NCBI GenBank assembly: GCA_964551605.1
Contig: CAZKCV010000006.1
Location: 70-64,069 of the forward strand
Length of the DNA: 64,000 bases
Reading direction: 5' to 3'
Source of the DNA: an uncultured Gammaproteobacteria bacterium
GTDB lineage: Bacteria > Patescibacteriota > Microgenomatia > Daviesbacterales > UBA10151
The position numbers and the translations under genes are program-made. Below are positions 1,678 to 60,287 of the stretch, one piece after another (the first letter of the stretch is position 1; each line of letters opens with the position of its first letter). The notes beneath the pieces were generated by a model. It made no database searches and had not been told where the DNA came from. It worked only from the letters and a program-made list of their open reading frames with translations.

Positions 1678-1785
1678 ACTGCTACTAGTCCTGGTTGCAA
1701 AATTTGTTGCATATACTTGTAGCTATAATCAAGTGGCTGATATGGTATAGTCCACTCATAGGTTCTGAATGTATTAAGCAAAGCC

Positions 1786-6160: not shown

Positions 6161-6201
6161 TCAATGTATTATACAGGAAAAAGATAAGACTGTAATCCGT
6201 G

Positions 6202-17385: not shown

Positions 17386-18060
17386 TTAGCTGAAGAATCT
17401 GTAGTGCAGATGTTGCTTCCTGGCCAGGAGCGGAATAGCAGAAAACCAGCCGAATAAAAAGCCTCCGACATGGGACAAAAAAGCTATTCCACCTTCATTC
17501 GGGCTCATCGGGAATGAGGCTAAACCGCTAAAAAACTGGGTGATAAACCAGAAAAAAAGTAAAAAGTAAGCCGGGATATCTACAATGGTGACAAAAAAGA
17601 AGATAAAAATTAAAGTTTTAATCCTGCTTCTGGGGAAAAGGGCAAAATAGGCTCCCAATACTCCGGCTACAGCGCCGGAGGCACCCAGCATGGGGATGGA
17701 AGCTGTGGGTGTGGCCAGGTATTGGGCCAGGCCGGCTACCACTCCGGAGGCCAGATAAAAAACCGGAAACAGGAAAAAGCCTAAACTGACTTCCACATTA
17801 TTGCCGAATACCCACAAAAACAGCATGTTGGAGATGATGTGGATAAAGCCGCCGTGCAAGAATTGACTGCTGATTAAGGGTAAGGCGGTCCGAAAATCTG
17901 CCAGGTCCAGTAGGACCGGAATAAAGGCATACTGGAGAATAAAACCTTCCGGGCTGGCAGCAGTCAGCTCCAGGTAAAAAATGTAAATATTGACTAATAT
18001 GATGGCCACTACCCAAAAAGGAAACCTGGATAATGCATTGGTATCTTTTAAAGGAATCAT
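17386..18060 (-). CDS. rhomboid-family intramembrane serine protease
   Basis: 'GASGAVAGVLGAYF' (GxSG) and 'HGGFIHIISNMLFLWVFG' rhomboid motifs. Confidence 0.75.
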   Translation of the reverse strand: MIPLKDTNALSRFPFWVVAIILVNIYIFYLELTAASPEGFILQYAFIPVLLDLADFRTALPLISSQFLHGGFIHIISNMLFLWVFGNNVEVSLGFFLFPVFYLASGVVAGLAQYLATPTASIPMLGASGAVAGVLGAYFALFPRSRIKTLIFIFFFVTIVDIPAYFLLFFWFITQFFSGLASFPMSPNEGGIAFLSHVGGFLFGWFSAIPLLARKQHLHYRFFS

Positions 18061-18672: not shown

Positions 18673-19477
18673 TTTAGCTTTACACAGCTTTACACCCTCC
18701 GGGTGTTTTAGGTTGACACCCTTTCTCTATTATGTGTAAGATATGTTTATGGCCACACTTAGAAAGTTGGTGTTTCGTGAGGGTGAAGTCTATCATGTTT
18801 TTAACAGAGGGATAGAGCGAAGAACTACCTTTAGTGAGAAAAGAGAACTCGCAAGGATGCAGAAGCTGGTCAAATTTTATAGGCACAAAGATACTCCGGT
18901 CAGGTTTTCCCAGGTTATACAGAAACCTGAAGAGACCAGAGAGAAGTTACTGGCTGCTCTTTATAAGAGTGAAAGGGCAGTAGATATCCTAAGTTACTGC
19001 CTGATGCCCAATCATTTTCATTTTTTGCTTAAACAAAACACAGACAAAGGGATTTCCTCTTTTATATCTAATATCACAAATGGCTATACTAAATATTTTA
19101 ATACAAGATATGAAAGGATGGGTCCCCTATTTGAAGGTGTTTTTAAGGCAGTTCATATTGAAAGCGATGAGCAGTTGGTTCATGTCTCCAGGTACATCCA
19201 CCTAAACCCAGTGGTTTCCGGTGTGATACCGGATAATGAGCTTGAAAGTTACCCTTGGTCATCCTATCCGGAATATTTATCTTTATCCAACTTGGAAATA
19301 TCGCAGACAGATTTAATTTTAAGCATGTTCAAAACGATAAAAGCCTACCAGGAATTTGTTAACAATCAAATAGATTACGGTAAACAGCTGGAAGTTATCA
19401 AACATCTTACTTTAGAATGATATTCTAATTGAAGAATAGGTGTAAAGCTATATCACCCTCCGGGTGTAGCCTTAGTT
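18673..19477 (+). mobile_element. IS200/IS605-like minimal element (Y1 transposase flanked by subterminal hairpins)
   Basis: The left end carries the 48-bp block TTTAGCTTTACACAGCTTTACACCCTCCGGGTG..TTAGGTTGACACC. The right end carries GTGTAAAGCTA plus the same CACCCTCCGGGTG hairpin, then CCTTAGTT. Confidence 0.55.
18743..19420 (+). CDS. tnpA: Y1 HUH transposase (IS200/IS605 TnpA / RAYT-like)
   Basis: 'CLMPNHFHFLL' HUH motif and 'VSRYIHLNP' catalytic Tyr motif. Confidence 0.7.
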   Translation: MFMATLRKLVFREGEVYHVFNRGIERRTTFSEKRELARMQKLVKFYRHKDTPVRFSQVIQKPEETREKLLAALYKSERAVDILSYCLMPNHFHFLLKQNTDKGISSFISNITNGYTKYFNTRYERMGPLFEGVFKAVHIESDEQLVHVSRYIHLNPVVSGVIPDNELESYPWSSYPEYLSLSNLEISQTDLILSMFKTIKAYQEFVNNQIDYGKQLEVIKHLTLE

Positions 19478-25986: not shown

Positions 25987-26925
25987 ATGGATATTGTAAC
26001 CATTATTTTAGTAGTCGGAGGGCTGGTTTTATTCGAAACAGTTTCTTCCATTGATAACGCAGTTATTAATGCCGAGGTTCTTTCCACCATGAGCAGGAAA
26101 GCCAGAAGATGGTTTCTGCTCTGGGGACTGCTGATTGCAGTTTTTCTGCTTCGGGGAGCTTTGCCCTGGGCTATTGTCTGGGCTGTTAATCCGGGTTTGG
26201 GTCCGATTGGATCATTTACTGCTGCTTTAAGTTCTGACCCGGCGGTGGCAGAGGCCATTGAGGGCTCCAAGCACATCCTGCTTTCGGGTGGAGGCATATT
26301 TTTAGTTTTTTTGTTTTTCCATTGGCTGTTCCTGGAATCGAAAAACTTCGGCCTGCGGGGTGAGCGGTTTTTCCAGCGGCAGGGTGTCTGGTTTTATGCA
26401 GTAGTGTCTCTGATTTTGGCAGGAGTAGTCTGGTTTTCCATAAATAAGGATCCGTTCATGGCTTTCGGAGCAGTCTTAGGTTCAACTGCTTTTTTTATTA
26501 CCCACGGGTTTAAGGAGAATGCCAGACAGGCTGAAGAACAGATGCTTCACAACAAAGATACCGGATTGTCTGACATGAGCAAGATTTTTTACCTGGAAGT
26601 GATAGATGCGACTTTTTCCATTGATGGTGTGGTAGGAGCCTTTGCTTTTACCCTGTCCGTGCCCTTAATTTTGCTGGGAAACGGCATTGGGGCTTTGGTA
26701 GTCAGGCAACTGACGGTTTCCAATATAGACAGGATCAAGAAATATATTTACCTAAAAAACGGTGCTATGTACTCTATCTTTTTCTTAGGATCAATTATGC
26801 TGGCAGACAGCTTTGGACTGCATATCCCAGCCTGGTTGTCTCCGGTGGTGACTGCGGTGGTAATTGCTTATTTCTTCCTAAAATCAAAACGATCGCTGGT
26901 TGACACCTTGAAGGTGTCAACCTAA
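25987..26925 (+). CDS. TerC/DUF475-like integral membrane protein
   Basis: 'ETVSSIDNAVINA' resembles the TerC 'E..LSVDNA' motif; multi-TM. The last 8 codons lie inside a REP-like hairpin. Confidence 0.4.
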   Translation: MDIVTIILVVGGLVLFETVSSIDNAVINAEVLSTMSRKARRWFLLWGLLIAVFLLRGALPWAIVWAVNPGLGPIGSFTAALSSDPAVAEAIEGSKHILLSGGGIFLVFLFFHWLFLESKNFGLRGERFFQRQGVWFYAVVSLILAGVVWFSINKDPFMAFGAVLGSTAFFITHGFKENARQAEEQMLHNKDTGLSDMSKIFYLEVIDATFSIDGVVGAFAFTLSVPLILLGNGIGALVVRQLTVSNIDRIKKYIYLKNGAMYSIFFLGSIMLADSFGLHIPAWLSPVVTAVVIAYFFLKSKRSLVDTLKVST

Positions 26926-26960
26926 CCCACCCCCGGGGTGGGATACGCACACACCGTAGG
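26898..26960. repeat. REP-like composite: GGTTGACACC-TTGAA-GGTGTCAACC hairpin plus CCCACCCCCGGGGTGGG hairpin
   Basis: Read directly. It provides the C-terminal codons and stop of the preceding gene. Confidence 0.6.
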
Positions 26961-26965
26961 GGATA

Positions 26966-28660
26966 TCACCAGAAGTAATTATTTCTGACTTCAATTCCGA
27001 ACAGGGCATTTCCCAGCGGGCTTTGCGGGAAAAGGGCTAACCCGGCCCTGGCGAATTTTTCAGCAGCTTCCGTATTTCCTGTCTGTCCCAGGAAAAGTGA
27101 TAGCCTAAGATATGAAAGATAAGAAGATCTTGCCCCTCCGGGGTAAAAATCAAATTGATAGTTAGCCGGATCTAATTTTGATAAGTCAATAGACTCCAAG
27201 GTGTCCCCTTGAAAGGCCAGAGCATCATTTTTTACCAGAACTATCATAAAATCATCCAAATAAACTGTTTTCCAATCCGGGTTTTTGATAATGGAAACTA
27301 AAAAGGCTTTACCCCAGGGGGTTTGGTCAGTATGGGAAAAGATAATAGTCCTAAAGCCGATTTTTTCGTCAAGCTGCTTAAACTTTTCAGGTTCATATTG
27401 GGCTGGGATATAAACTTGCTGGAAAAATTCCTTCGGGTATTCCCCTGGTCTTCCATCCACAAAGATCCGGTATTTTGGCCAGCCACGGTAGGTAATGTAG
27501 CTTCCGATATCAAAATTATTAAAAACAGGCTGCGATAAATTATTTTTTAGGGCAAAATCAAGGGCGCCTTTACCATTTTCTTCGAATTGAAGCAGCGGCC
27601 TGGTGCTGCTGCCGGTATATTTATAATAATCCCCGTTTAGGTAAAAAAAACTTTCCAGAAGCAGCAACGGTACCGTCACCCAGACCAGCATTTTAAGAGG
27701 GCGGGCTGGACGGAAAGCTCCAAAATTTTCCAGCACTGCCGGGAGTGAGATTAAAGCCAAATAAGGAAAGCTCCTGACATTCATCAAAGCCAGTACCATG
27801 CCTAGACCGGCCAGGCCCAGATTCTTTATTGTTAATCCTTTCTTGAATAGGGCTACACAAACTGAAAGTACAATAATGGCTATGGCAATCTTGACAAACA
27901 GGAAATTAGGATCCCGGAAGTTAATACTTTCGAGAAGAAACATGGTTTGGTTTTCCACAATGGTATAGCCGTAGTTTTGGTTAAAGGTTAAAGGATTCAG
28001 GAATCCTTTGAGGCCGCTGGGATTAATTAAGCTGGCCCCAACCGATAGTCCAAAAATTATCCCCAGTATTTTTAGCTTTACACCCTTGGGGTGTAATCGA
28101 AAGTATTGGTACCCCAGGTGAATCAGGTAAATAGCCTGGAGAAATAAACCTAACATAAAATAGATATGGCTATTGACCCAGATTAGCTGGACAACCGGCA
28201 GGGCAAAAATTAGCTTGGTTTTTGTCTTCTCAAATTTACTCAGGATATAAAGAGTAAGTCCGGTAAAAAGAAAGCTTAATATTTCCGGGCGGAAGTCCGG
28301 CCGCTCCCGTAAAGTATGTAAGAAAAGAAAACCAATAGGTAAAAGCAGATATTGGTTTTTAGGTGTGGTTTTTAAGACAAACCAGACAGCCAGCAGGATA
28401 ATGACCACTTTTAAAATAAGTAATGCCTGCAGGCCGATTGTCTGCTGGCCCAAAAAGACTAGAACCTCAAACAGCCAGTGGCTATTAATAAAGGGAAAAT
28501 CAGGATAAGTGTAGGAAAACAGGTTGGTTAAAGGTACGGTTTTGGTTTGTAAGATAATTTCCCCTAATTTTAAGTGCCGGCCTAAGTCCTGGTTAAAGGA
28601 ATCATCGGTTCGGAAAAGGAAAGAAAAAACGAAAAATAACAGGAGAATTTTAATCCACAT
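26966..28660 (-). CDS. polytopic membrane protein (GT-C-like; possible C-terminal TPR)
   Basis: 564 aa, more than 10 TM helices and a soluble C-terminus. Confidence 0.4.
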   Translation of the reverse strand: MWIKILLLFFVFSFLFRTDDSFNQDLGRHLKLGEIILQTKTVPLTNLFSYTYPDFPFINSHWLFEVLVFLGQQTIGLQALLILKVVIILLAVWFVLKTTPKNQYLLLPIGFLFLHTLRERPDFRPEILSFLFTGLTLYILSKFEKTKTKLIFALPVVQLIWVNSHIYFMLGLFLQAIYLIHLGYQYFRLHPKGVKLKILGIIFGLSVGASLINPSGLKGFLNPLTFNQNYGYTIVENQTMFLLESINFRDPNFLFVKIAIAIIVLSVCVALFKKGLTIKNLGLAGLGMVLALMNVRSFPYLALISLPAVLENFGAFRPARPLKMLVWVTVPLLLLESFFYLNGDYYKYTGSSTRPLLQFEENGKGALDFALKNNLSQPVFNNFDIGSYITYRGWPKYRIFVDGRPGEYPKEFFQQVYIPAQYEPEKFKQLDEKIGFRTIIFSHTDQTPWGKAFLVSIIKNPDWKTVYLDDFMIVLVKNDALAFQGDTLESIDLSKLDPANYQFDFYPGGARSSYLSYLRLSLFLGQTGNTEAAEKFARAGLALFPQSPLGNALFGIEVRNNYFW

Positions 28661-28683
28661 TAAAAAATTGTATCACAGACCAT

Positions 28684-28716
28684 TACGCGATTTAATGCGC
28701 GATTATTGCGCGATTT
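28684..28716 (+). promoter_or_regulatory. three direct (T)TGCGCGAT repeats plus an extended -10 (TGGTATAAT) upstream of Fic gene 1
   Basis: ACGCGAT / TGCGCGAT / TGCGCGAT read directly; TGGTATAAT at 28718-28726. Confidence 0.45.
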
Positions 28717-28734: not shown

Positions 28735-29793
28735 ATGTTTGAACCGCGATACAACATTACCACTCTGACCCTTTCCCGGATTGCTGAAATTGCCGAGATA
28801 AAAGCGGCCGTTGAAAGGTCCCGCGTTTTGCCCTTAAATGAAGCTCAACTGAGGCGCCAGGCAATTCTGCGGATGGCCCATACCTCCACGTCAATTGAGG
28901 GAAATAAATTAGCTGAATTTGAAGTGGGGAAAGTCCTGGAAGGAAAGTCTGTCCGGGCGACCCAAAAGGATATTGTAGAGGTGGAAAACTACTACCAGGC
29001 CCTAAAGCTGATTGAGAAAATGGCCAGGGAAAAAGGCAATATAACGGTGGCGGAAATATTAAAATTACACAAGGCGGTGGTTGAAGGACTGGTGGAAAAT
29101 GAGAAAGTCGGGAGTTTCAGACCGGCTGATGTTTATGTATTGGATGATTTGGGAGACGGCCGGGAAATGTTAAGGTTTAAGGCCCCCCCTGCTTCCGGGG
29201 TTGAAAAAATGATAGAGGATTTAATGGCCTGGCTTAGATCATCAAAAAAAACAGGTATCCACCCGATTATCCGGGCCGGTATTTTGCACCTGCAGTTTGT
29301 CACCATCCACCCTTTTACAGACGGCAACGGCCGGGTGGCCAGACTCTTGACCCAGCTTCAGCTTTACCGGGACGGCTGGGATTTTCGGAAAATTTTGGTG
29401 CTGGAGGACTATTATAACCAGGACCGGATGTCTTATTATAATGCGGAAAACCGGGCCCAGGGAAAAACTTACCAGGAGGACATGGATTTTACCAACTGGC
29501 TGGAATACTTTACCACCGGGTTTTTGGTGGAAGCCAGAAAGGTTTTGGAACAAATCCAGTCAATAGGGTTTGGTAAAGTCAGCAGGAAGAGCGAGCAGAT
29601 CTTTTTAGACCGGGATGAGATTCAGGTAATGGATTTTTTGACTACTACAGGCAGGATTACCTCAGATGATGTGGCAGATATCTTAAAAGTAGCCAAAAGG
29701 ACTGCCCAGCTTAAGCTTAAGAATTTATCGGATAAGGGTCTGCTTAAATTAAAAGGCAAAGGCCCCAGCTCTTATTATATCCTTGCGCGATAG
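28735..29793 (+). CDS. Fic family protein (class II, N-terminal inhibitory helix; C-terminal wHTH)
   Basis: 'HPFTDGNGRVAR' Fic motif and 'STSIEGN' inhibitory motif. Confidence 0.8.
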   Translation: MFEPRYNITTLTLSRIAEIAEIKAAVERSRVLPLNEAQLRRQAILRMAHTSTSIEGNKLAEFEVGKVLEGKSVRATQKDIVEVENYYQALKLIEKMAREKGNITVAEILKLHKAVVEGLVENEKVGSFRPADVYVLDDLGDGREMLRFKAPPASGVEKMIEDLMAWLRSSKKTGIHPIIRAGILHLQFVTIHPFTDGNGRVARLLTQLQLYRDGWDFRKILVLEDYYNQDRMSYYNAENRAQGKTYQEDMDFTNWLEYFTTGFLVEARKVLEQIQSIGFGKVSRKSEQIFLDRDEIQVMDFLTTTGRITSDDVADILKVAKRTAQLKLKNLSDKGLLKLKGKGPSSYYILAR

Positions 29794-29890
29794 GTTGCGC
29801 GATTATTGCGCGATAGCCACCACTTGCTATTTACAAAAAAATATGAAACAATTAGTTTGTGAGTAGAGTGTATTTAGTGTTTATACAGTA

Positions 29891-33144: not shown

Positions 33145-33218
33145 GCGGGTGTAATTCACCGGTAGAATGTCACTTTTCCAAAGTGAACGTAAGGGGTCCG
33201 ACTCCCCTCACCCGCTCC
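33145..33218 (+). tRNA. tRNA-Gly (anticodon TCC), CCA encoded
   Basis: Acceptor GCGGGTG/CACCCGC, anticodon loop TTTCCAA, T-arm AGGGG-TCCGACT-CCCCT, discriminator T plus CCA. Confidence 0.75.
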
Positions 33219-33250
33219 AGACGAATTTTATCGAACTGACAAATTTTAGC

Positions 33251-33279
33251 TTCAAAAAATTGCTGAATTTTGCTATAAT
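33251..33279 (+). promoter_or_regulatory. consensus-like sigma70 promoter (TTCAAA-17-TGcTATAAT)
   Basis: Read directly; it fires rightwards, antisense to the small ORF 33331..33495. Confidence 0.5.
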
Positions 33280-33330
33280 CTAGGCTTATAACGTATTACC
33301 TTAACAGGAATCGAACTAGCCTTAATTTTA

Positions 33331-33495
33331 TTATTTCTCATCTTGCTCAACTTCTTCAAAATCTCCCATCCACTTTGACCCATAGACATGTTGCATAACA
33401 GCACAAGCTAACAAATATACAACTTCCTGTATGTCTTTTAGCTCTTCTTCCGAAGCATTAGGGTAATATTTTTTAATTACTTCCAAAGGTAACAT
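33331..33495 (-). CDS. 54-aa acidic protein (paralog of 35201..35365); not in the supplied ORF track
   Basis: Translates to MLPLEVIKKYYPNASEEELKDIQEVVYLLACAVMQHVYGSKWMGDFEEVEQDEK. Strong SD (AAGGAGG) 8 nt upstream; about 75% identical to copy 2. Confidence 0.45.
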   Translation of the reverse strand: MLPLEVIKKYYPNASEEELKDIQEVVYLLACAVMQHVYGSKWMGDFEEVEQDEK

Positions 33496-34956: not shown

Positions 34957-34967
34957 TGAATGAATTT

Positions 34968-35093
34968 CTGATATGCATACTTATACAGTTTTTAGTTCTA
35001 AGGCGTAGACTAAATCTGGTAACAGACCGTCAGATAGGAATAATCTGATGAATTCTGGCAGTCTGGCTAAGATCACGTCAGGAGCTCCATACG
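34968..35093. repeat. noncoding segment X, duplicated at 36570-36707 (about 85% identity)
   Basis: Shared strings include GAATTTCTGATATGCATA..., GACCGTCAGATAGGAA and GAATTCTGGCAGTCTGGCTAAGA..GTCAGGAGCTCCATACG. Confidence 0.6.
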
Positions 35094-35215
35094 AATTTTA
35101 TTGAAATAACAAACTTTAGCTTCAAAAAATTGCTAAAATTTGTCGAAATTTAATCCTATAACATAGGACCACAACGGGAATCGAACTAGCCTTAAGCTTG
35201 TTATTTCTCTTCTAG
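35094..35215. repeat. noncoding segment Y, duplicate of 33219-33345 (follows tRNA-Gly in copy 1)
   Basis: ACGAATTTTAT..TTAGCTTCAAAAAATTGCT...GGAATCGAACTAGCCTTAA conserved in both copies. Confidence 0.6.
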
Positions 35216-35365
35216 GACGGGTTCATCAAAATCTCCCATCCATTTCGACCCATAAAATTCTTGCATAACAGCACATGCCAATAAATAAACAACCTCTTGG
35301 ATATCTTTTAGCTCTTCTTCTGAAACATCGGGATAGTATTTTCTTATTTCTTCCATAGGTAGCAT
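35201..35365 (-). CDS. 54-aa acidic protein (paralog of 33331..33495)
   Basis: The track ORF 35201..35401 is trimmed to the Met preceded by AAGGTGGTGA. Sequence MLPMEEIRKYYPDVSEEELKDIQEVVYLLACAVMQEFYGSKWMGDFDEPVLEEK. Confidence 0.45.
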   Translation of the reverse strand: MLPMEEIRKYYPDVSEEELKDIQEVVYLLACAVMQEFYGSKWMGDFDEPVLEEK

Positions 35366-36381: not shown

Positions 36382-36569
36382 CTAACTTAAGAATACACAA
36401 GATTTTTAGCATCACCAGATATTCAAAAACTGAAAATGTGTCGTACAAGTTTGAGTATATTAATGTATAATTATTTTTACCGAATGATCCTTGTGGTGAA
36501 AGTACCTTACTATTAGGGAGCTAATGTTGACATCATAATCGATGATTCATCTTGGCCACGAGGATCGAA

Positions 36570-36707
36570 TTTCTGATATGCATATTTATGCATTTTTTAG
36601 ACCTAAGGCATAGACGAAGTCAGGTAGTAGACCGTCAGATAGGAACATTTTGAAGAATTCTGGCAGTCTGGCTAAGACCTCGTCAGGAGCTCCATACGGA
36701 ATACCCT
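36570..36707. repeat. noncoding segment X, copy 2
   Basis: See 34968-35093. Confidence 0.6.
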
Positions 36708-44300: not shown

Positions 44301-44348
44301 TTTAGCTTTACACAGCTTTACACCCTCCGGGTGGTTTAGGTTTACACC
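44301..44348. repeat. 48-bp copy (46/48) of the left-end block of the 18673 element
   Basis: TTTAGCTTTACACAGCTTTACACCCTCCGGGTGGTTTAGGTTTACACC, 20 bp downstream of the tRNA-Arg 3' end. Confidence 0.7.
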
Positions 44349-44368
44349 TATTCTTTATTTAAGATTTG

Positions 44369-44441
44369 CGCCCCTGGAGGGATTCGAACCCCCAATCTAA
44401 CGCTTAGAACGCGCTCGCTTCATCCATTAAGCTACAGGGGC
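44369..44441 (-). tRNA. tRNA-Arg (anticodon TCT)
   Basis: Reverse complement folds: acceptor GCCCCTG/CAGGGGC, D-arm GCTT-AATGGATG-AAGC, anticodon loop GTTCTAA, T-loop TTCGAAT. Confidence 0.7.
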
Positions 44442-44575
44442 AAGGTCGCACTGACTATTTTAACAATTTAGGGCTAATTAAGCAAAGCTGATACAATTCA
44501 CCTCAAGAATATCCCACCTGGGGGGTGGATTTCTACGTTCGCCAGTTGGCGAAGGAAAGCTTTGCTTATTGACAC

Positions 44576-45561: not shown

Positions 45562-46860
45562 TTAAAGCTTAAACCTCCTATCAGCCAGAAAGGGATTAGG
45601 CTTGCGGCGGATTCCTGGTGAGGTTAGCAGGATGCCGCGCTGCAGGGTAAATTCTCCGTATTTGTCATTAATTTTATCCAAAGCCCGGGTGATAATTTCC
45701 TTTCTTTTAACTTCCGGCAAAAAGCTTAAATTCTGGGGAGTTTGTGGTCTAAGGTTGGAAACAGACAGACCTATCATCCTGATCTTTTCACCAGTCCAGA
45801 TTTGGTGAAAAATTTTCCAGGCTGCCTGAAAGATTTCCAGGCCGTCATTGGTAAAATGAATGGTGGTTTGCATGCTGTCACCGGAGAATACGTTCTCACG
45901 GTGTGCGGCTATCCCACCCCTGGGGTGGGATAGGTTGACACCGTATAGATCTAAAGCCTTTCTGTACCAGCAGTGGATGGTTTTACCGACCAGTCTTTTA
46001 GCCCTCAGTCTTCTGGCTACCATTTCTGAAAGTTTCAGTATGATTTGTTTAATCTCGGCCGGATTGTTTGTATCATGGCTAATGGTATGCCGGTGCCCGA
46101 TACTTTTTACCTCTCCTTTTTCGTAGAAAGGAATAATCGGTGAATGGTCAATACCCCTGGCCATGTTATACAGAATTTGGCCGTAACTTTTAAAGGAAGC
46201 CAGTAAGCTTGCTAAAGGTGCTTGCCTGAGCTGGTAAAAATTAGATATCCCTAAGTTATTAAGCCTTTTTTTAATCCGGGAGCCGATGCCGCAGATTTCA
46301 TCCAGCTCAATCCGGTCCAGAATTTTAATGGCCTCTTCCTGATTAGGAATGATTACTAAACCATCAGGTTTTTGTAGGGATCCGGCCAGCTTGGCCATTA
46401 ATTTGTTATAAGAGATGCCGATGGAACAAGTTATCACTTCACCAATTTCACTTCGAATTCTTCTTTTAATATCTAAAGCCATCGGTATAACATTGTGAGA
46501 AGATGTTTCTAAAAAACACTCATCTATAGAAAACACCTCTAGTTTTGAGCTGTAGTCTTTTAAGATATTTATAAATCTTTTGGTAGTTTCCAGATACTTA
46601 TCAGAATCCCCCGGTACCAAAATAATTTGCGGACAAAGCTTGCGGGCTTCCCAAATCTGCATCCCGGTTTTAACCCCATATTTCTTGGCCTCTACGGAAG
46701 CTGCACCTAAGACTGTTCTTTTCATTCTATCCCCTCCGGTTACTCCAATAGGTTTTCCCCGCAGCCTGGGGTTTGCCTGCTGTTCCACTGAAGCAAAATA
46801 AGAATTGAAGTCAATGTGTAATATAGCTTTCATAAGCTTGCCCTTGTCAAAAATTGTCAT
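45562..46860 (-). CDS. dinB: Y-family DNA polymerase (DinB/Pol IV-like) with an extra insert
   Basis: 'ILHIDFNSYFASVE' and 'SIDECFLE' catalytic motifs. At 432 aa it is longer than typical Pol IV. Confidence 0.75.
   Translation of the reverse strand: MTIFDKGKLMKAILHIDFNSYFASVEQQANPRLRGKPIGVTGGDRMKRTVLGAASVEAKKYGVKTGMQIWEARKLCPQIILVPGDSDKYLETTKRFINILKDYSSKLEVFSIDECFLETSSHNVIPMALDIKRRIRSEIGEVITCSIGISYNKLMAKLAGSLQKPDGLVIIPNQEEAIKILDRIELDEICGIGSRIKKRLNNLGISNFYQLRQAPLASLLASFKSYGQILYNMARGIDHSPIIPFYEKGEVKSIGHRHTISHDTNNPAEIKQIILKLSEMVARRLRAKRLVGKTIHCWYRKALDLYGVNLSHPRGGIAAHRENVFSGDSMQTTIHFTNDGLEIFQAAWKIFHQIWTGEKIRMIGLSVSNLRPQTPQNLSFLPEVKRKEIITRALDKINDKYGEFTLQRGILLTSPGIRRKPNPFLADRRFKL
45911..45946. repeat. 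REP-like element (TCCCACCCCTGGGGTGGGA hairpin plus TAGGTTGACACCGTA) inside the dinB coding sequence
   Basis: Read directly; in frame it encodes 'YGVNLSHPRGGIA'. Confidence 0.6.
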
Positions 46861-53908: not shown

Positions 53909-54877
53909 ATGAATTTCTGGCAAAAGCTCAAAAAGCCTTTTTTTATTTTAGCCCCTATGGATGGGGTAACTGATACGGTTTTCCGGCAGATTGTAGCCTC
54001 TGTGGGTAAACCGGACGTGTTTTTAACCGAATTTGTACCGGTTGATGCCTTAATGTCGAAGCACTCTGAGAGGGCTTTGGAAACCCTAAAATTTACAGAA
54101 TCTGAAAGGCCGATGGTAGCCCAAATCTGGGGGTCTGAACCGGAGAAGTTTTACAAAGTAGCCCAAATGCTTGCCCAAATGAAATTTGATGGCATAGATA
54201 TCAATATGGGCTGTCCGGATAAAGCTGCGGTAAGAAAAGGCGGCTGTTCTGCTTTAATTAAAAATCCCCAACTGGCTGTAGAGATTATTGAGGCCACCAT
54301 CAAAGGAGCCGGTGGTTTGCCTGTCAGTGTGAAAACCAGGATCGGTTTTAGCAGCATTGATACTGAAAACTGGGTTACCTCCCTGCTGCAAACCCCTATT
54401 TCAGCTTTAATTCTGCACCTTCGGACAGTCAGGGAAATGTCCAAACCTCCGGCTCATTGGGATGAAATCAGTAAAGCCGTTCTGGTCAGAAATAAAATCA
54501 AATCCAAAGCCCTCATTATTGGCAATGGGGATATAAAAAGCCTTAAAGAGGCCAGAGATAAGTGTCTGGAATACGGAATAGACGGAGTAATGATAGGCCG
54601 GGGTATTTTTGAAAATCCCTGGGTTTTCAATGAAAAAATAGATATAGAGAAAGTTTCCCGGGAAGATAAAATAGCTTTGTTTGTCAGACACCTGGAACTA
54701 TATAAAACAGTCTGGGGGCAAAAGAAAAACTTTGCCAACATGAAAAAATTTGTTAAAACCTATGTCAAAGGCTTCAGGGAAGCCACCGAAGTCCGGGAAG
54801 ATTTAATGCGGACTAAAAGCATTGATGAATTAATCCAAAAATCCCAACTAACCCACCCCCGGGGTGGGTTAGGTTGA
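53909..54877 (+). CDS. dus: tRNA-dihydrouridine synthase
   Basis: 'ILAPMDGVTD' plus a TIM-barrel FMN-site Cys. The C-terminus 'LTHPRGGLG*' is encoded by a REP-like element. Confidence 0.8.
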   Translation: MNFWQKLKKPFFILAPMDGVTDTVFRQIVASVGKPDVFLTEFVPVDALMSKHSERALETLKFTESERPMVAQIWGSEPEKFYKVAQMLAQMKFDGIDINMGCPDKAAVRKGGCSALIKNPQLAVEIIEATIKGAGGLPVSVKTRIGFSSIDTENWVTSLLQTPISALILHLRTVREMSKPPAHWDEISKAVLVRNKIKSKALIIGNGDIKSLKEARDKCLEYGIDGVMIGRGIFENPWVFNEKIDIEKVSREDKIALFVRHLELYKTVWGQKKNFANMKKFVKTYVKGFREATEVREDLMRTKSIDELIQKSQLTHPRGGLG

Positions 54878-54885
54878 CACCGTAC
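54849..54885. repeat. REP-like element (CCCACCCCCGGGGTGGG plus TTAGGTTGACACCGTA) overlapping the dus stop
   Basis: Read directly. Confidence 0.6.
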
Positions 54886-56504: not shown

Positions 56505-57479
56505 ATGAAGCTGATAGGCCAAAAAGGGCTCATCCCTATCATCATTATCCTTGCGGTTTCCATAGTTTCTGCTGCTTTGTTGATCGCGTCTAACCAAACC
56601 ACAAAACCTACCCAAATGGCTAAAGCAGCTGCAGTGGTTACACCCGGCCCCACACCCTTACCTTCCCCTGAACTTCCCCCAACTCCTAGTCCTATAGCTG
56701 TAGCCTCGCAAGGCGTCACCCCCACACCAACCCCTTCGATTGTTCCATCAGTGGCTTCCCAGCCGGTAATTAATAATGCCCTGCCCGGCAGCGGCTTTTC
56801 TAATCAAAATGTCAGTGTTGACGGCTATACCTACCCGGTAGCTATTATTGCTGCTGACTTAAATTCTACCAGAGTGATCGTGGATACGGCTTCCGAATCT
56901 GATTGCGGCAACAGCTGTCCGGTTTTATCCCTGGCAGATTATGCATCCCGAAATGGTGCCTATGCCGGCATCAACGGCTCATATTTTTGCCCGGCAGATT
57001 ATGCAAGCTGTGCCGGAAAAACCAATTCCTTTGATACCCTTTTAATGAATAAGGGTAAACGCTATTTTAATTCAGATAATAATGTCTATTCCACTGTTCC
57101 GGCTGCCATTTTTTCAGCCGGCTCAGCCAGGTTTGTAGGCCAATCCCTGGAATGGGGCCGGGATACCGGACCGGACAGTGTTATTGCTAATTACCCCTTA
57201 CTTATTGCAGGCGCCAATATTAACTTCACAGAGGTTCCCAATGAGCCTAAATTCGGCAATAAAGCTCCGAGAACATTCATAGCAGCCAAGGGTAATATGG
57301 TCTACATCGGAATTGTCTATAAAGCCACCATGGGTGAATCAGCCAAGGTCTTAAAAGCCTTGGGTATGGATGGAGCGTTAAACCTGGACCAGGGCGGCTC
57401 CACAGCCCTCTGGTCCGGAGGCTACAAGGCCGGCCCCGGCCGCAGCATTCCAAATGCAATACTTTTTGTTAATCGTTAA
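56505..57479 (+). CDS. secreted phosphodiester glycosidase (NAGPA-like) domain protein
   Basis: Signal peptide, Pro/Thr linker, 'ALNLDQGGSTALW'. Confidence 0.5.
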   Translation: MKLIGQKGLIPIIIILAVSIVSAALLIASNQTTKPTQMAKAAAVVTPGPTPLPSPELPPTPSPIAVASQGVTPTPTPSIVPSVASQPVINNALPGSGFSNQNVSVDGYTYPVAIIAADLNSTRVIVDTASESDCGNSCPVLSLADYASRNGAYAGINGSYFCPADYASCAGKTNSFDTLLMNKGKRYFNSDNNVYSTVPAAIFSAGSARFVGQSLEWGRDTGPDSVIANYPLLIAGANINFTEVPNEPKFGNKAPRTFIAAKGNMVYIGIVYKATMGESAKVLKALGMDGALNLDQGGSTALWSGGYKAGPGRSIPNAILFVNR

Positions 57480-57489
57480 GTTTTAATCC

Positions 57490-58273
57490 AACCCCCGGTG
57501 TTAGATAGCTTCAAACCTAAGGATTATTCCAGGGTTAGATGTTTTATCCTATTAAGTTGTCTTTGGTAATCTGCTTGGTCTAATACAAACTGATAATATC
57601 TCTCTGAGCTTTTGCAGAAATTCAGTATGTCTCTTGTTTGTATAAATGGGTATATCGCACCTGCATTTAGGTAGGTTCCGAAGGAAGACCACTTATATTC
57701 TAATAATTTTTCAGGTTCAACTATATAATCGGTAGCAGGGTTTAGGTGTATATACCTGGAGACATGCAACAACTGTTCATCCGTCACAATCCTGACCGCC
57801 TTAAACATAGATTGAAATAATGGGCCAACCCGTTCATTTTTAATATTTAAGTATTTGGCATAACCGTTTTGTAAATTAGACAGGAAAACAGAAATCCCTT
57901 TTTCTGTTAATTGTTTCAATAAAAAATGAAAATGATTGGGCATTAGACAAAAAGCTAGTATTTCTACATGAGTCTTATTTTCTTTCTTTAATCCCTCTAA
58001 AATTTTCTCTCTGAGATCTCTCGGCATCTTCTTGAATTGAGAAAAACTGGTAGGTGTATCAACAAAACGGTAATAGTCAACTAATTCCAGGAACCTTTGA
58101 TAATCGCTATTAGAATAAAATATTGGTAAAGCTGCTACTCCTCTATTATAGACATGGTAAATCTGATCCTGAGCCAGGATGACTTTTCTATATGGCATAT
58201 CCCCATATTATCAGAGTTGTTAACTTTTTCAAGAGTTAATCCTTAGGTTGGAACGTAACTAACACCCGGTGTT
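57490..58273 (-). mobile_element. IS200/IS605-like minimal element 2 (hairpin-IR ... IR-hairpin)
   Basis: AACCCCCGGTGTT (57490-57502) plus AACCTAAGG (57514-57522) on the left. CCTTAGGTT (58241-58249) plus AACACCCGGTGTT (58261-58273) on the right. Confidence 0.55.
57524..58198 (-). CDS. tnpA: Y1 HUH transposase (paralog of 18743..19420)
   Basis: 'CLMPNHFHFLL', 'VSRYIHLNP', shared C-terminal 'IKHLTLE'. Confidence 0.7.
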   Translation of the reverse strand: MPYRKVILAQDQIYHVYNRGVAALPIFYSNSDYQRFLELVDYYRFVDTPTSFSQFKKMPRDLREKILEGLKKENKTHVEILAFCLMPNHFHFLLKQLTEKGISVFLSNLQNGYAKYLNIKNERVGPLFQSMFKAVRIVTDEQLLHVSRYIHLNPATDYIVEPEKLLEYKWSSFGTYLNAGAIYPFIQTRDILNFCKSSERYYQFVLDQADYQRQLNRIKHLTLE

Positions 58274-58360
58274 GGAGATTTGTTGCTGGAGGTTTTAGGC
58301 CTTACTTTTTTGTTACCCAATATTGATATAAACCTTATCCTTATCCTGTAGCATTTCTTT

Positions 58361-59182
58361 ATGCCTGAGACTGATGATAGAAACGAAGATGCAGGATATA
58401 CCCGCCGGGAGTTCACCAGAGAATCAGCAATGATCCTTTTAAGGGGGCTAGGAGTGGGTATGATGGGTGGGTTCTATTTGAGTATTATTTTAGCTCTTCG
58501 AAAAGCAGGGTATGTACCGGAAAACAATTTGTATCCCAAATCCAGAAATCTACCACCCTTTTTATATCTTGACCCTCCGGTAGAACCCCGGCCTTCACCT
58601 ATCAGGGATTGTTTGCCCGGGGAAGGAACAGGTACCCCCTCTCTCTCCGAAAGGGCTGAAGAGATAGGAATTGGAAGACTTAAATTTCTTAAAGAAATCA
58701 TCCCGCAATATATAAATCTAAATGGTTCACTTAAGGATTATAATCCCGGGGAAGATGCCGGAGTTTTAAGACTTGATTTAGATTCCAAACTTAAGGCAAA
58801 AACGGCTTATGACTTGTTTTACCATGCTTCGCCCCACCAGCCTGTTTCAAGATACACTTTAGCCTTTGACGACCCAAAACCCACAAATGCCCACCAGTAC
58901 TTTTCACTGGATGTCCATTACCCACGGTGTACAGAACCTGAAACAGTTGTTATTAAAGGAATCCTTTCAAATTTCCCATACAGTACTATCTTAAGAAGAA
59001 GGCTCCAACCCATTGCGGAGAGCTATTTTAATTTCTCAAAGCAGACACAGTGGCTTAATGGCAGAAGAAAGTTCAGCGGCACTGCAGAAGAAAATGCCGT
59101 AAAAGCTATTGATCCGCTCCGACGCGTAGATTTTTTACTGGAAGAAAGTAAAAAATTCATGCTGGTAGCCAACATTCATTGA
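58361..59182 (+). CDS. hypothetical membrane-anchored protein
   Basis: 273 aa, one TM. Confidence 0.35.
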   Translation: MPETDDRNEDAGYTRREFTRESAMILLRGLGVGMMGGFYLSIILALRKAGYVPENNLYPKSRNLPPFLYLDPPVEPRPSPIRDCLPGEGTGTPSLSERAEEIGIGRLKFLKEIIPQYINLNGSLKDYNPGEDAGVLRLDLDSKLKAKTAYDLFYHASPHQPVSRYTLAFDDPKPTNAHQYFSLDVHYPRCTEPETVVIKGILSNFPYSTILRRRLQPIAESYFNFSKQTQWLNGRRKFSGTAEENAVKAIDPLRRVDFLLEESKKFMLVANIH

Positions 59183-59231
59183 AACCTAAAACCTTTCTTT
59201 TTCCAGCCTGAAGTATTAGAATACGCAGACT

Positions 59232-60287
59232 ATGGGTGTTTCAAAGTTTCTGAAGCTGTCTAAGAAAAAACTGATTATTTTGGCAGTCATAATTATTATT
59301 GCTTCAGCAGGCTTTTATTTCTACAGCCGGCCAAAGCAGGATTCCCTGCAATTTGTTGAAGTCAGAAGACAGGAGATAAAATCCATAGTTTCTTCTTCCG
59401 GAAATCTGACCGGTAAAAACAGCGCAGATCTAAAATTTATGTTACCCGGAAAATTGACCTTTATTAATGTAAAAACCGGAGACAATGTCTTTGCAGGCCA
59501 GGTGCTGGCCGGCTTGGATACCCAGCAGCTTGCTATTGAACTGCAGCAGGCCCAAAATAACCTCCGGGATAAACAGGCTACCACGGATAGAGTTATAGAT
59601 GACATTCACCTTTTTCAATACGGTAACGGCGGATTCGCTAACGTGGGAACTGAAAATGAAACCATGACCCAAAGGCAGCTTCGGACAACTGCTGAAGCAG
59701 CCCGGGATAATGCCTTTGATGCCATAAAATTAGTGCAGCGGGGCTTCCAGGATACCGTAATTATTTCTCCCCTGAGCGGTCTGGTTACTCAGGCTGCTGA
59801 GCTGCCTAATCAGGTAGTAACGGCTGTTGATCTAATTGTCCAGGTAGTAGATACCACGGCTATTTATTTTGATACTGATATTGATGAAGCTGATATCAGT
59901 AAAATTCAGACAGGACAACCGGCTGAAGTTATCCTGGATGCTTATCCGGAAGATACTTTTAATGGTACCGTCGAGCAGATTCTGCCCCAGACTAAAACCA
60001 CTTCCCAAGGAGCTAAAGTAGTAACTATCAGGATCAGGCTGGATAATCCACCGGCAACTTTTATCAATGGCTTAACCGGCCAGGCTGATATCATTATTGA
60101 ATCCGTAAAAGGCTCTTTAACTATTCCGATAGAAGCGCTTCGTGATGATAATACGGTCCTGGTCCGGGAAGAAAAAGACCTGGTTCCCCGTAAAGTTACC
60201 CCTGGGATTATTTCTGAAACTGATGTGGAAATTAAATCCGGATTAAAGACAGGTGAAAAAGTGCAGCTTAATCCGCCCTCACCATGA
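59232..60287 (+). CDS. efflux adaptor (HlyD/MacA-like membrane fusion protein)
   Basis: N-terminal TM, biotinyl-like 'VKTGDNVFAGQVLAGLD', coiled coil, beta-barrel tail. Confidence 0.7.
   Translation: MGVSKFLKLSKKKLIILAVIIIIASAGFYFYSRPKQDSLQFVEVRRQEIKSIVSSSGNLTGKNSADLKFMLPGKLTFINVKTGDNVFAGQVLAGLDTQQLAIELQQAQNNLRDKQATTDRVIDDIHLFQYGNGGFANVGTENETMTQRQLRTTAEAARDNAFDAIKLVQRGFQDTVIISPLSGLVTQAAELPNQVVTAVDLIVQVVDTTAIYFDTDIDEADISKIQTGQPAEVILDAYPEDTFNGTVEQILPQTKTTSQGAKVVTIRIRLDNPPATFINGLTGQADIIIESVKGSLTIPIEALRDDNTVLVREEKDLVPRKVTPGIISETDVEIKSGLKTGEKVQLNPPSP

What the first reader, a model, noticed from the sequence alone, without database searches (positions are those of the whole stretch)
57490..58273. 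Second Y1 transposase element with symmetric hairpin-IR ends
A paralogous 224-aa Y1 transposase on the minus strand has a cleanly symmetric frame. Left: AACCCCCGGTGTT hairpin, then 11 bp, then AACCTAAGG. Right: CCTTAGGTT, then 11 bp, then AACACCCGGTGTT hairpin. Two diverged copies of a tiny, roughly 0.8-kb IS in 64 kb, together with the REP-like family below, suggest an active or recently active single-strand transposition system.
Basis: seen in the sequence. Interest (0 to 1): 0.55.

Follow-up and report, generated by a model that had tools for sequence, protein, structure and literature searches.

The report
Domesticated-type Y1 transposase flanked by palindromic repeats
This is a REP-associated-type tyrosine transposase gene of a tiny-genome groundwater bacterium (Daviesbacteria), framed by two inverted copies of its own palindromic repeat; it is a new member of a known kind (REPtron/TIRtron), not a jumping insertion sequence.

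Summary
A 224-aa HUH/Y1 gene (57524-58198, minus strand) is framed by a 40-nt inverted repeat (57487-57526 / 58237-58276). It matches at 34 of 40 positions; shuffles reach at most 25. Each arm holds a 9-nt foot (CCTTAGGTT), an 11-nt spacer and a short palindromic tip (AACNCCNGGNGTT).

The "tiny active IS" reading is only partly right. By sequence profile and predicted fold, the closest solved structure is E. coli TnpA-REP (4ER8). Its motifs (NHFH, FQ, YIHLNP, WSS) fit RAYT class 2, subclass 2.1 ("TIRYT").

The same frame flanks homologs down to 42% identity in Daviesbacteria and Levybacteria. In several genomes the gene sits in the same neighbourhood, although synonymous sites are saturated (dN/dS about 0.06). 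The arms stay 33-38/40 identical, so they are under selection.

A scan of one genome per species found the repeat almost only in Microgenomates-type genomes: 10 loci beside such a gene, 27 as extragenic orphans. Orphans carry genome-specific variants of their own genome's gene flanks. Copy number is low, at 1-4 exact matches per genome, and the window has none beyond the two flanks.

The closest relatives lack a 1.7-kb segment containing this gene, so it is gained or lost over time. No near-identical copies were seen. Verdict: new member of a known kind.

The parts
57524..58198 (-). RAYT/TIRYT-type Y1 (HUH) tyrosine transposase gene, 224 aa plus stop. HUH motif is NHFH (H89, H91), the catalytic Tyr lies in RYIHLNP (Y149), and there is a WSS tail motif.
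   Evidence: ORF. Pfam Y1_Tnp 31.8 bits. NCBIfam REP_Tyr_transpos 46.9 bits, below its cut-off of 80. Profile versus PDB best hit 4ER8, E=4.7e-4. AF2 model pLDDT 94.7. Foldseek best hit 4ER8, E=7.4e-6, TM 0.68. dN/dS about 0.06.
58237..58276 (.). Inverted-repeat arm on the 5' side of the gene. Contains foot CCTTAGGTT (58241-58249), the 11-nt spacer GGAACGTAACT ('B-type') and the palindromic tip AACACCCGGTGTT (58261-58273).
   Evidence: Covariance model R1 scores it 55.9 bits, E=1.8e-12. Conserved at homologous loci.
57487..57526 (.). Inverted-repeat arm on the 3' side of the gene. Contains tip AACCCCCGGTGTT (57490-57502), a spacer ('A-type', GAAGCTAT on the gene strand) and foot AACCTAAGG (57514-57522). 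It includes the stop codon TAA (57524-57526).
   Evidence: R1 scores it 61.9 bits, E=5.2e-14. 38/40 identical to the ortholog in L003 although synonymous sites are saturated.
57470..57489 (.). Degenerate distal half of the 3'-side unit (TAATCGTTAAGTTTTAATCC). It overlaps the last codons and the stop of the neighbouring NAGPA-domain gene.
   Evidence: R1 match 57470-57507, 20.8 bits, E=0.0013. Complete two-footed units occupy this position in L004 and L021.
58205..58232 (-). Promoter-like site for the gene (TTGAAA, 16 nt, TG-TAATAT). It starts 4 nt inside the 5' arm.
   Evidence: Consensus scan. The CTTGAAA box is conserved in L003, L004 and L005. Function is inferred.
57479..59204 (.). 1.7-kb variable segment (this gene with both arms, plus the ORFan 58361-59182). 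It is replaced by 20 nt in the closest relative found.
   Evidence: Window 57330-57478 aligns to L055 5805-5953 (80%) and window 59205-59330 aligns to L055 5974-6099 (90%). L054, L055, L057 and L058 have no such gene between the NAGPA gene and the MFP gene.
18743..19420 (+). Paralogous Y1 gene ('copy 1'), 225 aa, 49% identical. It is framed by its own repeat type (ACACCCTCCGGGTGT at 18692 and 19453; inverted-repeat arms 18691-18726 / 19433-19468).
44301..44359 (.). Orphan copy of the copy-1 flank, 92% identical to 18673-18731, lying next to tRNA-Arg. It shows that the sister system's flank is dispersed.
   Evidence: A shorter copy lies at 28074-28094.

Best explanation
The locus is a REPtron/TIRtron. 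It is a single-copy, RAYT-like (TnpA-REP class 2, subclass 2.1/'TIRYT'-like) HUH-Y1 single-strand DNA endonuclease/ligase gene of a Daviesbacteria-type (Microgenomates, CPR) genome, framed by copies of its cognate palindromic repeat.

The repeat unit in its complete form is a 53-nt quasi-palindrome: CCTTAGGTT, 11 nt, AACNCCNGGNGTT, 11 nt, AACCTAAGG. This is a REPIN-like long hairpin with two non-complementary spacers. In the window only the gene-proximal half plus the tip survives on each side, which gives the 40-nt 'terminal inverted repeat'.

Shown:
- the gene's family and fold;
- purifying selection on both the gene and the arms;
- conservation of the frame across the clade;
- extragenic orphan copies in the same bacterial group that carry the genome-specific variants of that genome's gene flanks.

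Inferred:
- The protein binds the folded unit on single-stranded DNA. It would use the tip hairpin plus the conserved 5' spacer (GAAGCTAT or GAACGTAA) where E. coli TnpA-REP uses hairpin plus GTAG.
- It cuts with Tyr149 and the HUH-bound metal and re-ligates, so it occasionally copies or moves units in trans rather than moving its own gene.
- Binding to the 5' arm, 4 nt from the -35 box, may also autoregulate the gene.
For: Protein:
- Pfam Y1_Tnp.
- The top NCBIfam model is REP_Tyr_transpos.
- A profile of 43 homologs hits 4ER8 (E. coli TnpA-REP) best, from the HUH motif through the Y motif and beyond, whereas the IS200-type hits cover only the HUH region.
- The AF2 model (pLDDT 94.7) is closest to 4ER8 (E=7.4e-6), ahead of ISDra2 and IS608 TnpA.
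- The motifs NHFH / FQ / YIHLNP / SS, the length of 224 aa and two intragenomic copies at 49% identity match Table 1, subclass 2.1, of PMC6006769.

Frame:
- The inverted repeat matches 34/40 against at most 25 in shuffles.
- The same frame (tip, 11 nt, foot, gene, foot, 11 nt, tip) is present in all 14 loci listed, spanning 42-100% identity.

Selection:
- dN is 0.16-0.20 with dS saturated, and dN/dS is 0.06-0.07 where computable.
- The arms nevertheless remain 33-38/40 identical among orthologs.

Single locus:
- The neighbourhood MacB-ABC-MFP | gene | (NAGPA) guanylate kinase is shared by the window, L003, L005/6 and L007-10.
- Proteins seen on many contigs have one context each.

Repeat family:
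- The scan of 185,579 species genomes gave 37 loci, nearly all Microgenomates-type. Ten lie beside a homolog and 27 have none in the 8-kb locus.
- 24 of 29 orphans are extragenic.
- Full units fold strongly (-14.9 kcal/mol, z=-5.8).
- The tip stem shows covariation: 79.5% of cells paired, and 0 of 500 shuffles reach that.
- Cognate link: for 4 of 7 orphan half-units, the nearest of 25 gene-flank units is the one from the same genome. For example, L038 and L011 share the otherwise unique GAAGTCATT spacer and GGCGTT tip.
Against: - Copy number is low. There are 1-4 exact matches per genome, including single matches in two complete chromosomes, and no orphan of this type in the 64-kb window. Classical REP/REPIN systems have tens to hundreds of copies.
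- The NCBIfam equivalog cut-off is not reached (46.9 versus 80).
- There is no GT[AG]G tag at the hairpin foot.
- The window's isolated arms do not fold better than shuffles.
- The closest relatives by neighbouring genes (L054 and L055; MFP 88-89%) lack the gene cleanly. The locus is therefore not simply fixed. The segment has been gained or lost, which an IS would also explain.
- No biochemical evidence exists for this clade. Strand, cleavage sites and direction of transfer are all inferred.
Confidence: 0.8

Rival explanations
1. It is an autonomous minimal insertion sequence of the IS200/IS605 superfamily that moves as a unit (gene plus both arms). The orphan units would then be solo ends or footprints.
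For: - The layout is compact and IS-like: the arms abut the stop codon and the promoter.
- There is presence/absence polymorphism. The 1.7-kb segment carrying it is replaced by 20 nt in L055 and by unrelated DNA in L054 and L056.
- L004 keeps the 3' neighbour (NAGPA) but has a different 5' neighbour.
- Bertels 2017 notes that Group 1 RAYTs are the most IS-like of the RAYT groups.
Against: - No second near-identical copy was seen. The two paralogs in the window are 49% identical and have different repeats.
- Clusters seen on 24 or more contigs have a single context.
- The same locus is occupied in lineages whose synonymous sites are saturated.
- The missing segment in L055 is larger than the element and also removes an unrelated ORFan. 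It is therefore not a clean excision of gene plus arms.
- Orphans outnumber genes 27 to 10 among the scanned loci.
- The Y motif is Y---NP, not Y---Q, and the ends are symmetric.
- Only relatives at 35% identity or less occur on plasmids and phages, and no unit occurs on viral contigs.
Confidence: 0.12
2. The palindromic units are host regulatory elements (terminators, mRNA stabilisers or protein-binding sites) that spread or persist independently of the Y1 protein. Their position next to the gene would then be incidental or purely autoregulatory.
For: - Orphans are extragenic and often lie a few to 60 nt from gene ends.
- The window's right tip scores as terminator-like.
- Orthologous orphans persist between genomes: L033/L045 and L013/L039.
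- Copy number is low.
Against: - Both sides of the gene carry the unit in all 14 loci, down to 42% identity.
- Orphans carry genome-specific variants of their own genome's gene flank.
- The paralog has its own, different repeat type, also with orphans. This one-gene-one-repeat pattern is the RAYT signature (PMC6006769).
- 26 kb around the empty site in the relatives that lack the gene there (L054, L055) contains no unit.
Confidence: 0.06

Closest known systems
TIRtron / TIRYT (Di Nocera et al. 2013, PMC3733652), equivalent to TnpA-Y1 subclass 2.1 (Quentin et al. 2018, PMC6006769) and to RAYT Group 1 (Bertels et al. 2017, PMC5581495)
   Same: - RAYT-like Y1 gene flanked by long terminal inverted repeats that lack the GTAG tag and are partly self-complementary.
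- The TIRs also occur as moderately or sparsely abundant dispersed families, singly or as dimers.
- Motifs NH[YF]H, FQ, Y[IV]HLNP and an SS tail; length about 230 aa.
- About two diverged copies per genome (about 49% identity), each with its own flank.
- Low flanking-repeat abundance (Group 1: about 12 occurrences).
   Different: - The host is a CPR/Microgenomates bacterium, a group absent from those surveys and from any RAYT paper in the searchable library.
- The TIR does not carry the GGGGWSAS motif noted for some TIRYTs.
- Quentin et al. found no REP-like structures for subclass 2.1. Here a defined bipartite unit (foot, spacer, tip hairpin) with orphans is demonstrable.
- Subclass membership rests on motif signature only, not on the authors' profiles.
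E. coli REPtron: TnpA-REP (RayT/YafM, PDB 4ER8) with REP/BIME (Nunvar 2010, PMC2817692; Messing 2012, PMC3479197)
   Same: - It is the closest solved structure by both profile and fold.
- The gene is flanked by inverted palindromic repeats that reach the stop codon.
- Single copy.
- Repeats are extragenic.
- Complete flanking units are doublets (REPIN-like).
   Different: - About 14% sequence identity.
- 224 aa versus 165 aa, with an extra helical C-terminal tail.
- W94 is replaced by F, and the GTAG-reading residues E100/H101 are not conserved (alignment).
- No GT[AG]G guide.
- The stem is much shorter.
- Copy number is one to two orders of magnitude lower.
IS200/IS605 insertion sequences (IS200, IS608, ISDra2)
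   Same: HUH-Y1 fold and chemistry, and recognition of small DNA hairpins near the ends. The conserved block about 20 nt 5' of the hairpin recalls the IS608 left-end geometry, where the cleavage site lies 19 nt 5' of the hairpin (from my own knowledge of IS608; not tested here).
   Different: - IS200/IS605 ends are asymmetric and not inverted repeats.
- Their Y motif is Y---Q.
- Their proteins are about 150 aa.
- They have several near-identical copies per genome (Table 1).
- None of these four features holds here.

Membership tests
HUH-Y1 transposase superfamily (Pfam PF01797) | Score above the Pfam gathering threshold; HUH motif and catalytic tyrosine present | tested here: met
   31.8 bits against a cut-off of 23. 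H89-F-H91 and Y149 are nearly invariant in 43 homologs. The fold matches TnpA structures.
TnpA-REP / RAYT class 2 (Quentin 2018) | Y motif Y---NP rather than Y---Q | tested here: met
   RYIHLNP in this protein and in the family consensus. Definition taken from PMC6006769.
TnpA-REP / RAYT class 2 (Quentin 2018) | Low intragenomic copy number and low identity between copies | tested here: inconclusive
   Two copies at 49% identity in 64 kb. The exact protein was found on two Logan contigs, one of which is the same locus as the window, and is also listed from an NCBI record with a 64,155-bp contig. Related proteins always have one context. The rest of the source genome could not be read.
RAYT (Nunvar 2010) | Gene flanked by two copies of a palindromic repeat in inverted orientation, close to the stop codon | tested here: met
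   40-nt inverted repeat, 34/40, overlapping the stop codon. Present in all 14 homologous loci.
RAYT with canonical REP (subclasses 2.2, 2.4, 2.5, 2.7, 2.8) | REP with a 5' GT[AG]G tetranucleotide at the foot of the hairpin | tested here: not met
   The nucleotides 5' of the tip are GAAGCTATYY or GAACGTAAAY, with no GT[AG]G at the foot. The E100/H101 equivalents are not conserved.
RAYT-REPIN system (Bertels and Rainey) | Flanking repeat is highly abundant genome-wide (flanking 16-mers: 57-140 copies for Groups 2 and 3) | tested here: not met
   1-4 exact matches per species genome, and single matches in two complete chromosomes. The window has none beyond the two flanks. This is compatible with Group 1 (about 12). 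True counts need whole genomes.
RAYT-REPIN system (Bertels and Rainey) | Dispersed copies are cognate to the genome's own RAYT flanks | tested here: met
   For 4 of 7 orphan half-units the nearest of 25 flank units is the one from the same genome; L038 and L011 share unique variants.
NCBIfam NF047646 REP_Tyr_transpos (equivalog) | Score at or above the curated cut-off (80 bits) | tested here: not met
   46.9 bits. It is the best-matching model, but the protein is not an equivalog.
TIRYT / subclass 2.1 | Motif set NH[YF]H, FQ, Y[IV]HLNP, SS tail; about 238 aa; long TIRs instead of GTAG REPs | tested here: met
   NHFH, GPLFQ, YIHLNP, WSS and 224 aa, compared with Table 1. TIRs confirmed. Not tested with the authors' HMMs or tree.
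TIRYT / subclass 2.1 | TIR motif GGGGWSAS (shared by some, not all, TIRYT TIRs) | tested here: not met
   The arms read ...CCGGGGGTTGGA and ...CCGGGTGTTAG, and neither fits GGGGWSAS. The motif is not obligatory.
IS200/IS605 insertion sequence (subclass 1.1) | Asymmetric subterminal hairpins without TIRs; Y---Q; about 150 aa; several near-identical copies | tested here: not met
   Symmetric inverted repeat, YIHLNP and 224 aa, and no near-identical copy found.

The most novel reading that the evidence does not exclude
This CPR clade may be the missing case in which subclass 2.1 ('REP-less') Y1 enzymes do have a cognate, structurally defined REPIN-like unit. Where both flanks are complete (L004, L021) the two units lie in the same direct A-to-B orientation. 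The locus then looks like a gene sitting between two copies of one quasi-palindrome, as if a circle (gene plus one unit) had integrated at the apex of another unit. On this reading gene plus units is, or recently was, a self-mobilising element with an apex-cleaving mechanism unlike the IS608 peel-and-paste scheme. The clean absence of the segment in the closest relatives would reflect that mobility.
Probability: 0.12. Interest if true: 0.6.

Novelty: new member of a known kind. Interest (0 to 1): 0.33.

Why it matters
RAYT/REPIN systems are discussed as long-lived, vertically inherited replicators inside genomes, but they have been studied almost only in Proteobacteria and Cyanobacteria. The same gene-plus-repeat arrangement is seen here in ultra-small CPR genomes of about 1 Mb, which have little spare DNA. 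One 64-kb stretch holds two diverged enzymes and three palindrome families. The repeat unit here is short and simply defined, and copy numbers are low enough to trace individual events.

It also gives the large subclass 2.1 (reported without REPs) a concrete candidate DNA substrate for biochemistry. For annotation, genes of this clade, some of which public sources name 'transposase', should not be counted as evidence of active IS load.

Tried and rejected
- I first took the equally long ORF 17386-18060 for the paralog. BLASTP shows no similarity; it is an unrelated ORF (rhomboid-like by my own reading of its sequence, not tested). tblastn then located the real paralog at 18743-19420.
- A single-sequence PDB search gave only marginal ISDra2 hits (E=1.3). 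A profile was needed.
- I tried to define an orphan's insertion boundaries by aligning L003 (orphan at 2345-2401) with the syntenic L005. The intergenic DNA is too diverged.
- I looked for repeat remnants at the empty sites in L054-L058 and found none.
- Rfam has nothing real in 57300-58500 (one chance-level snoRNA hit).
- Viral contigs contain no unit. Plasmids and phages hold only relatives at 35% identity or less.
- The source genome is not among the species representatives, so genome-wide copy number in this very genome could not be measured.
- The ORFan next to the gene has no homolog in the word-indexed search of 5.8 billion proteins, so it gives no functional clue.
- I considered that orphans are internal-deletion (MITE-like) derivatives of gene plus arms. 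This is rejected because such a derivative would read tip-foot-foot-tip, whereas the orphans read foot-tip-foot.
Full report
**1. Observation**

The ORF 57524-58198 on the minus strand encodes 224 aa.

- To its left lie AACCCCCGGTGTT (57490-57502), 11 nt, and AACCTAAGG (57514-57522).
- To its right lie CCTTAGGTT (58241-58249), 11 nt, and AACACCCGGTGTT (58261-58273).

The repeat finder shows that these belong to one 40-nt inverted repeat, 57487-57526 / 58237-58276, 85% complementary. In a shuffle test the best 40-nt window matches 34/40, against a mean of 20.0, sd 1.2 and maximum of 25. The tip pattern AACNCCNGGNGTT occurs nowhere else in the 64 kb, with 0.07 expected. The inner end of the left arm contains the gene's TAA stop codon.

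The palindromic tips are short: 5-7 bp around a 3-nt loop, and the one at 57490 has a mismatch. Alone as ssDNA, the window's arms are not more stable than shuffles. They are real palindromes but weak hairpins.

**2. The protein**

- It passes Pfam Y1_Tnp (31.8 bits against a cut-off of 23).
- Its best NCBIfam model is REP_Tyr_transpos, but below the equivalog cut-off (46.9 against 80).
- The family is large: 4,759 hits in the word-indexed search, named where named as Daviesbacteria, Levybacteria or Patescibacteria. The closest non-self hit is 76% identical. The exhaustive search gave 373 cluster representatives at E<=1e-30.
- A 43-sequence alignment shows H89, H91 (NHFH), Y149 (RYIHLNP), GPLFQ and WSS as invariant or nearly so.
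- That profile hits E. coli TnpA-REP (4ER8) best (E=4.7e-4), from the HUH motif through the Y motif. The IS200-type structures match only around HUH.
- An AlphaFold model (pLDDT 94.7) is closest to 4ER8 (E=7.4e-6, TM 0.68 on the target), ahead of ISDra2 and IS608 TnpA.
- The motif set, the length and the presence of two copies at 49% identity in one genome fit subclass 2.1 of Quentin et al. 2018 (Table 1). The authors equate this subclass with the 'TIRYT' genes of Di Nocera et al. 2013 and with RAYT Group 1 of Bertels et al. 2017.
- The E. coli residues that read the GTAG guide are not conserved, and the repeats here have no GT[AG]G.

**3. Are the ends conserved elsewhere?**

Yes. I examined 14 loci spanning 42-100% protein identity: the window, L003-L005, L007, L011, L016, L021, L022, L025, L028, L032, L041 and L048. 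In all of them the gene is preceded by tip, 11 nt, AACCTAAGG and followed by stop, CCTTAGGTT, 11 nt, tip.

Among orthologs, dN is 0.16-0.20 while dS is saturated; dN/dS is 0.06-0.07 where it can be computed. The gene is under strong purifying selection. The non-coding arms remain 33-38/40 identical, far more than neutral DNA at that divergence could. The arms are therefore functional.

A promoter-like TTGAAA-16-TGnTAATAT lies 4 nt inside the 5' arm, and its -35 box is conserved in orthologs.

**4. What the repeat really is**

In several homologous loci a flank is a complete 53-nt quasi-palindrome: CCTTAGGTT, 11 nt, tip, 11 nt, AACCTAAGG. Examples are the L005 5' side, the L004 3' side and both sides of L021. 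Such a unit folds strongly as ssDNA (L033: -14.9 kcal/mol, z=-5.8).

The two spacers are conserved in sequence but not complementary to each other. The 'A' spacer is GAAGCTAT. The 'B' spacer is GAACGTAA, or CAGATACAAAAC in Levybacteria. A covariance model built from 56 half units finds a degenerate distal half at 57470-57507 in the window, overlapping the stop of the neighbouring NAGPA-domain gene.

The window's '40-nt TIR' is thus the gene-proximal half plus tip of two decayed REPIN-like units. Where both flanks are complete (L004, L021), the two units share the same A-to-B orientation. The inverted-repeat look then comes from the unit's own quasi-palindromy.

The tip stem shows modest covariation: 79.5% of cells paired, and no shuffle of 500 reaches the observed pairing or covariation score. 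The pairs C-G, T-A and T-G alternate at the stem extension. Two orthologous orphans (L013, L039) differ by a compensatory C-G to A-T change.

**5. Dispersed copies**

An exact-pattern scan of one genome for each of 185,579 species returned 37 loci. Nearly all are Daviesbacteria, Levybacteria, Curtissbacteria or 'Patescibacteria'. Some are MAGs labelled Gammaproteobacteria that carry the same CPR-type sequences. Ten loci lie beside a homolog of the gene. The other 27 have no homolog within the 8-kb locus, though a few of those matches lie near a locus edge.

Orphans occur as half units and as complete units, and 24 of 29 are extragenic.

In the four genomes where both gene flanks and orphans were captured, orphans carry that genome's private variants. 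For 4 of 7 orphan half-units, the nearest of 25 flank units is the one from the same genome. For example, L038 and L011 share GAAGTCATT and GGCGTT, which are seen nowhere else. This is the one-enzyme-one-repeat signature of RAYT systems.

Copy number is nevertheless low. There are 1-4 exact matches per genome, one each in two complete chromosomes. The model finds few extra copies in 311 kb of loci and none in the window beyond the two flanks.

**6. Is it a mobile IS?**

Evidence against:
- The exact protein was found on two Logan contigs, one of which (L001) is the same locus, and it is also listed from an NCBI record.
- Related proteins observed on dozens of contigs always have one context: P0013 and P0053.
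- Homologs at 67-76% identity occupy the same neighbourhood as in the window, between the MacB-ABC-MFP operon and guanylate kinase. The 3'-to-3' adjacency to the NAGPA gene, or to its remnants, is kept in L003, L004 and L005.
- Plasmids, phages and viral contigs hold nothing close.

Evidence for some gain/loss dynamics:
- A metagenome scan with the neighbouring MFP protein found two contigs of 1.0-1.15 Mb (L054, L055). Their MFP, ABC and NAGPA genes are 77-91% identical to the window's, yet they lack this gene.
- Window 57479-59204 (1.7 kb: the gene, both arms and an ORFan) corresponds to 20 nt in L055, to about 680 nt of unrelated DNA in L054, and to a different 441-aa ORF in L056.
- No repeat remnant remains there.
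- The missing segment is larger than gene plus arms. It is therefore a variable intergenic slot rather than a clean excision.

I read this as long residence with occasional loss or replacement, as described for RAYTs. IS-like mobility keeps a minority probability.

**7. Mechanism**

Steps marked 'inferred' are untested.

- Shown: a conserved HUH-Y1 enzyme of TnpA-REP type; conserved cognate palindromic units on both sides; cognate extragenic orphans.
- Inferred by analogy with E. coli TnpA-REP (PMC3479197, listed but not read here; its structure 4ER8 matched) and from my own knowledge of IS608 biochemistry:
  - On transiently single-stranded DNA the unit folds.
  - The enzyme recognises the tip hairpin together with the conserved spacer 5' of it.
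  - It cleaves with Tyr149, forming a 5'-phosphotyrosine link, and re-ligates.
  - This occasionally copies or relocates units in trans.
  - Binding at the 5' arm may repress its own promoter.

The conserved foot, 11-20 nt 5' of the tip, is a candidate cleavage or pairing site.

**8. Comparison and novelty**

The arrangement works like, and is best filed with, REPtrons/TIRtrons. It fails the tests for canonical GTAG REPs, for the NCBIfam equivalog and for high repeat abundance. It fails every test for an IS200/IS605 insertion sequence.

No paper in the searchable library links RAYTs or REPs with CPR bacteria. This is therefore a new member of a known kind in an unsurveyed phylum. One modest addition is that a subclass reported as lacking REP-like structures here has a clearly defined unit. 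I score interest at about 0.33.

**9. Context in the window**

- The paralog 18743-19420 has its own frame (ACACCCTCCGGGTGT). It has orphan copies at 44301-44359 (92% identical over 59 nt, next to tRNA-Arg) and at 28074-28094.
- A third palindrome family (CCCACCCCYGGGGTGGG with TTAGGTTGACACCGTA tails) lies at 26913, 45900 and 54839. It resembles the model weakly (E about 0.01).
- The shared AAGCTAT / TTAGGTT elements suggest that the three families are distant relatives.

Noticed in passing
window 58361-59182 (+): The 273-aa ORF between the 5' arm and the MFP gene is an ORFan. The only hit among 5.8 billion proteins is itself, called as 240 aa, and it has no Pfam hit. It is bracketed by a 10-nt inverted repeat, AGGTTTTAGG (58290-58299) / CCTAAAACCT (59185-59194). 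It is absent from all relatives examined.
   Followed up: partly
window 57479-59204; L054 5275-5956; L055 5954-5973; L056 81-1833: The intergenic slot between the NAGPA-domain gene and the MFP-ABC-MacB operon is a variable island. It holds 20 nt in L055, about 680 nt of unrelated DNA in L054, a 441-aa ORF with no Pfam hit in L056, and the Y1 gene plus ORFan in the window.
   Followed up: partly
window 26913-26958, 45900-45945, 54839-54884, also 44514-44529: A third palindromic repeat family (CCCACCCC[C/T]GGGGTGGG with AACCTAA / TTAGGTTGACACCGTA arms) has no cognate Y1 gene in the window. It is weakly similar to the covariance model of the type-2 unit.
   Followed up: partly
window 44301-44359 and 44368-44441: An orphan copy of the copy-1 gene's 5' flank (92% identical over 59 nt) lies 8 nt from the 3' end of tRNA-Arg(TCT).
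   Followed up: partly
window 1785-1874: A perfect tandem duplication of a 45-nt unit (CAACCGACCAAAGGGAGGTTAAAGGGCCAAACTTGTTTAGCCCGG).
   Followed up: no
window 33203-33495 / 35073-35365 and 34962-35093 / 36567-36698: Two pairs of long direct repeats (293 nt at 79%, 132 nt at 87%) lie 1.6-1.9 kb apart, starting next to tRNA-Gly (33145-33219). They may reflect a segmental duplication of a gene cassette.
   Followed up: no
window 28683-28714 and 29783-29814: Reiterated TT[A/G]CGCGAT motifs flank the ORF 28735-29793 on both sides.
   Followed up: no
L044 4220-4252 and 5382-5414 (both minus strand): Two half units in direct orientation bracket a trypsin-like protease gene (Pfam Trypsin, 83 bits), not a Y1 gene.
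   Followed up: partly
L013 7856-7888 and L039 605-637: Orphans at an orthologous site in two genomes (shared flanks AAAGTCCTAAAATTTGC). They differ by a compensatory change in the tip stem (AACCCC..GGGGTT versus AACACC..GGTGTT) and have different spacers.
   Followed up: no
L014-L016, L020, L024, L025, L031, L035-L037, L039, L041, L044, L047: Many MAGs titled 'uncultured Gammaproteobacteria' (and one 'Bacteroidetes', L033) carry the Microgenomates-type unit and Y1 gene. These titles are probably taxonomic mislabels or misbinned contigs.
   Followed up: no
L034 1599-1680; L022 about 6200-6260; L032 about 1420-1500: Some units carry internal partial reiterations: L034 has gattagctttgaacc repeated twice, and the 5' flanks of L022 and L032 have tandem ttgaaggag-type repeats beyond the tip.
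   Followed up: no
L007 3714-3755: In the Daviesbacteria GW2011-type locus the 3' arm of the Y1 gene overlaps the last codons of the convergent guanylate kinase gene. The repeat is therefore partly coding there.
   Followed up: no
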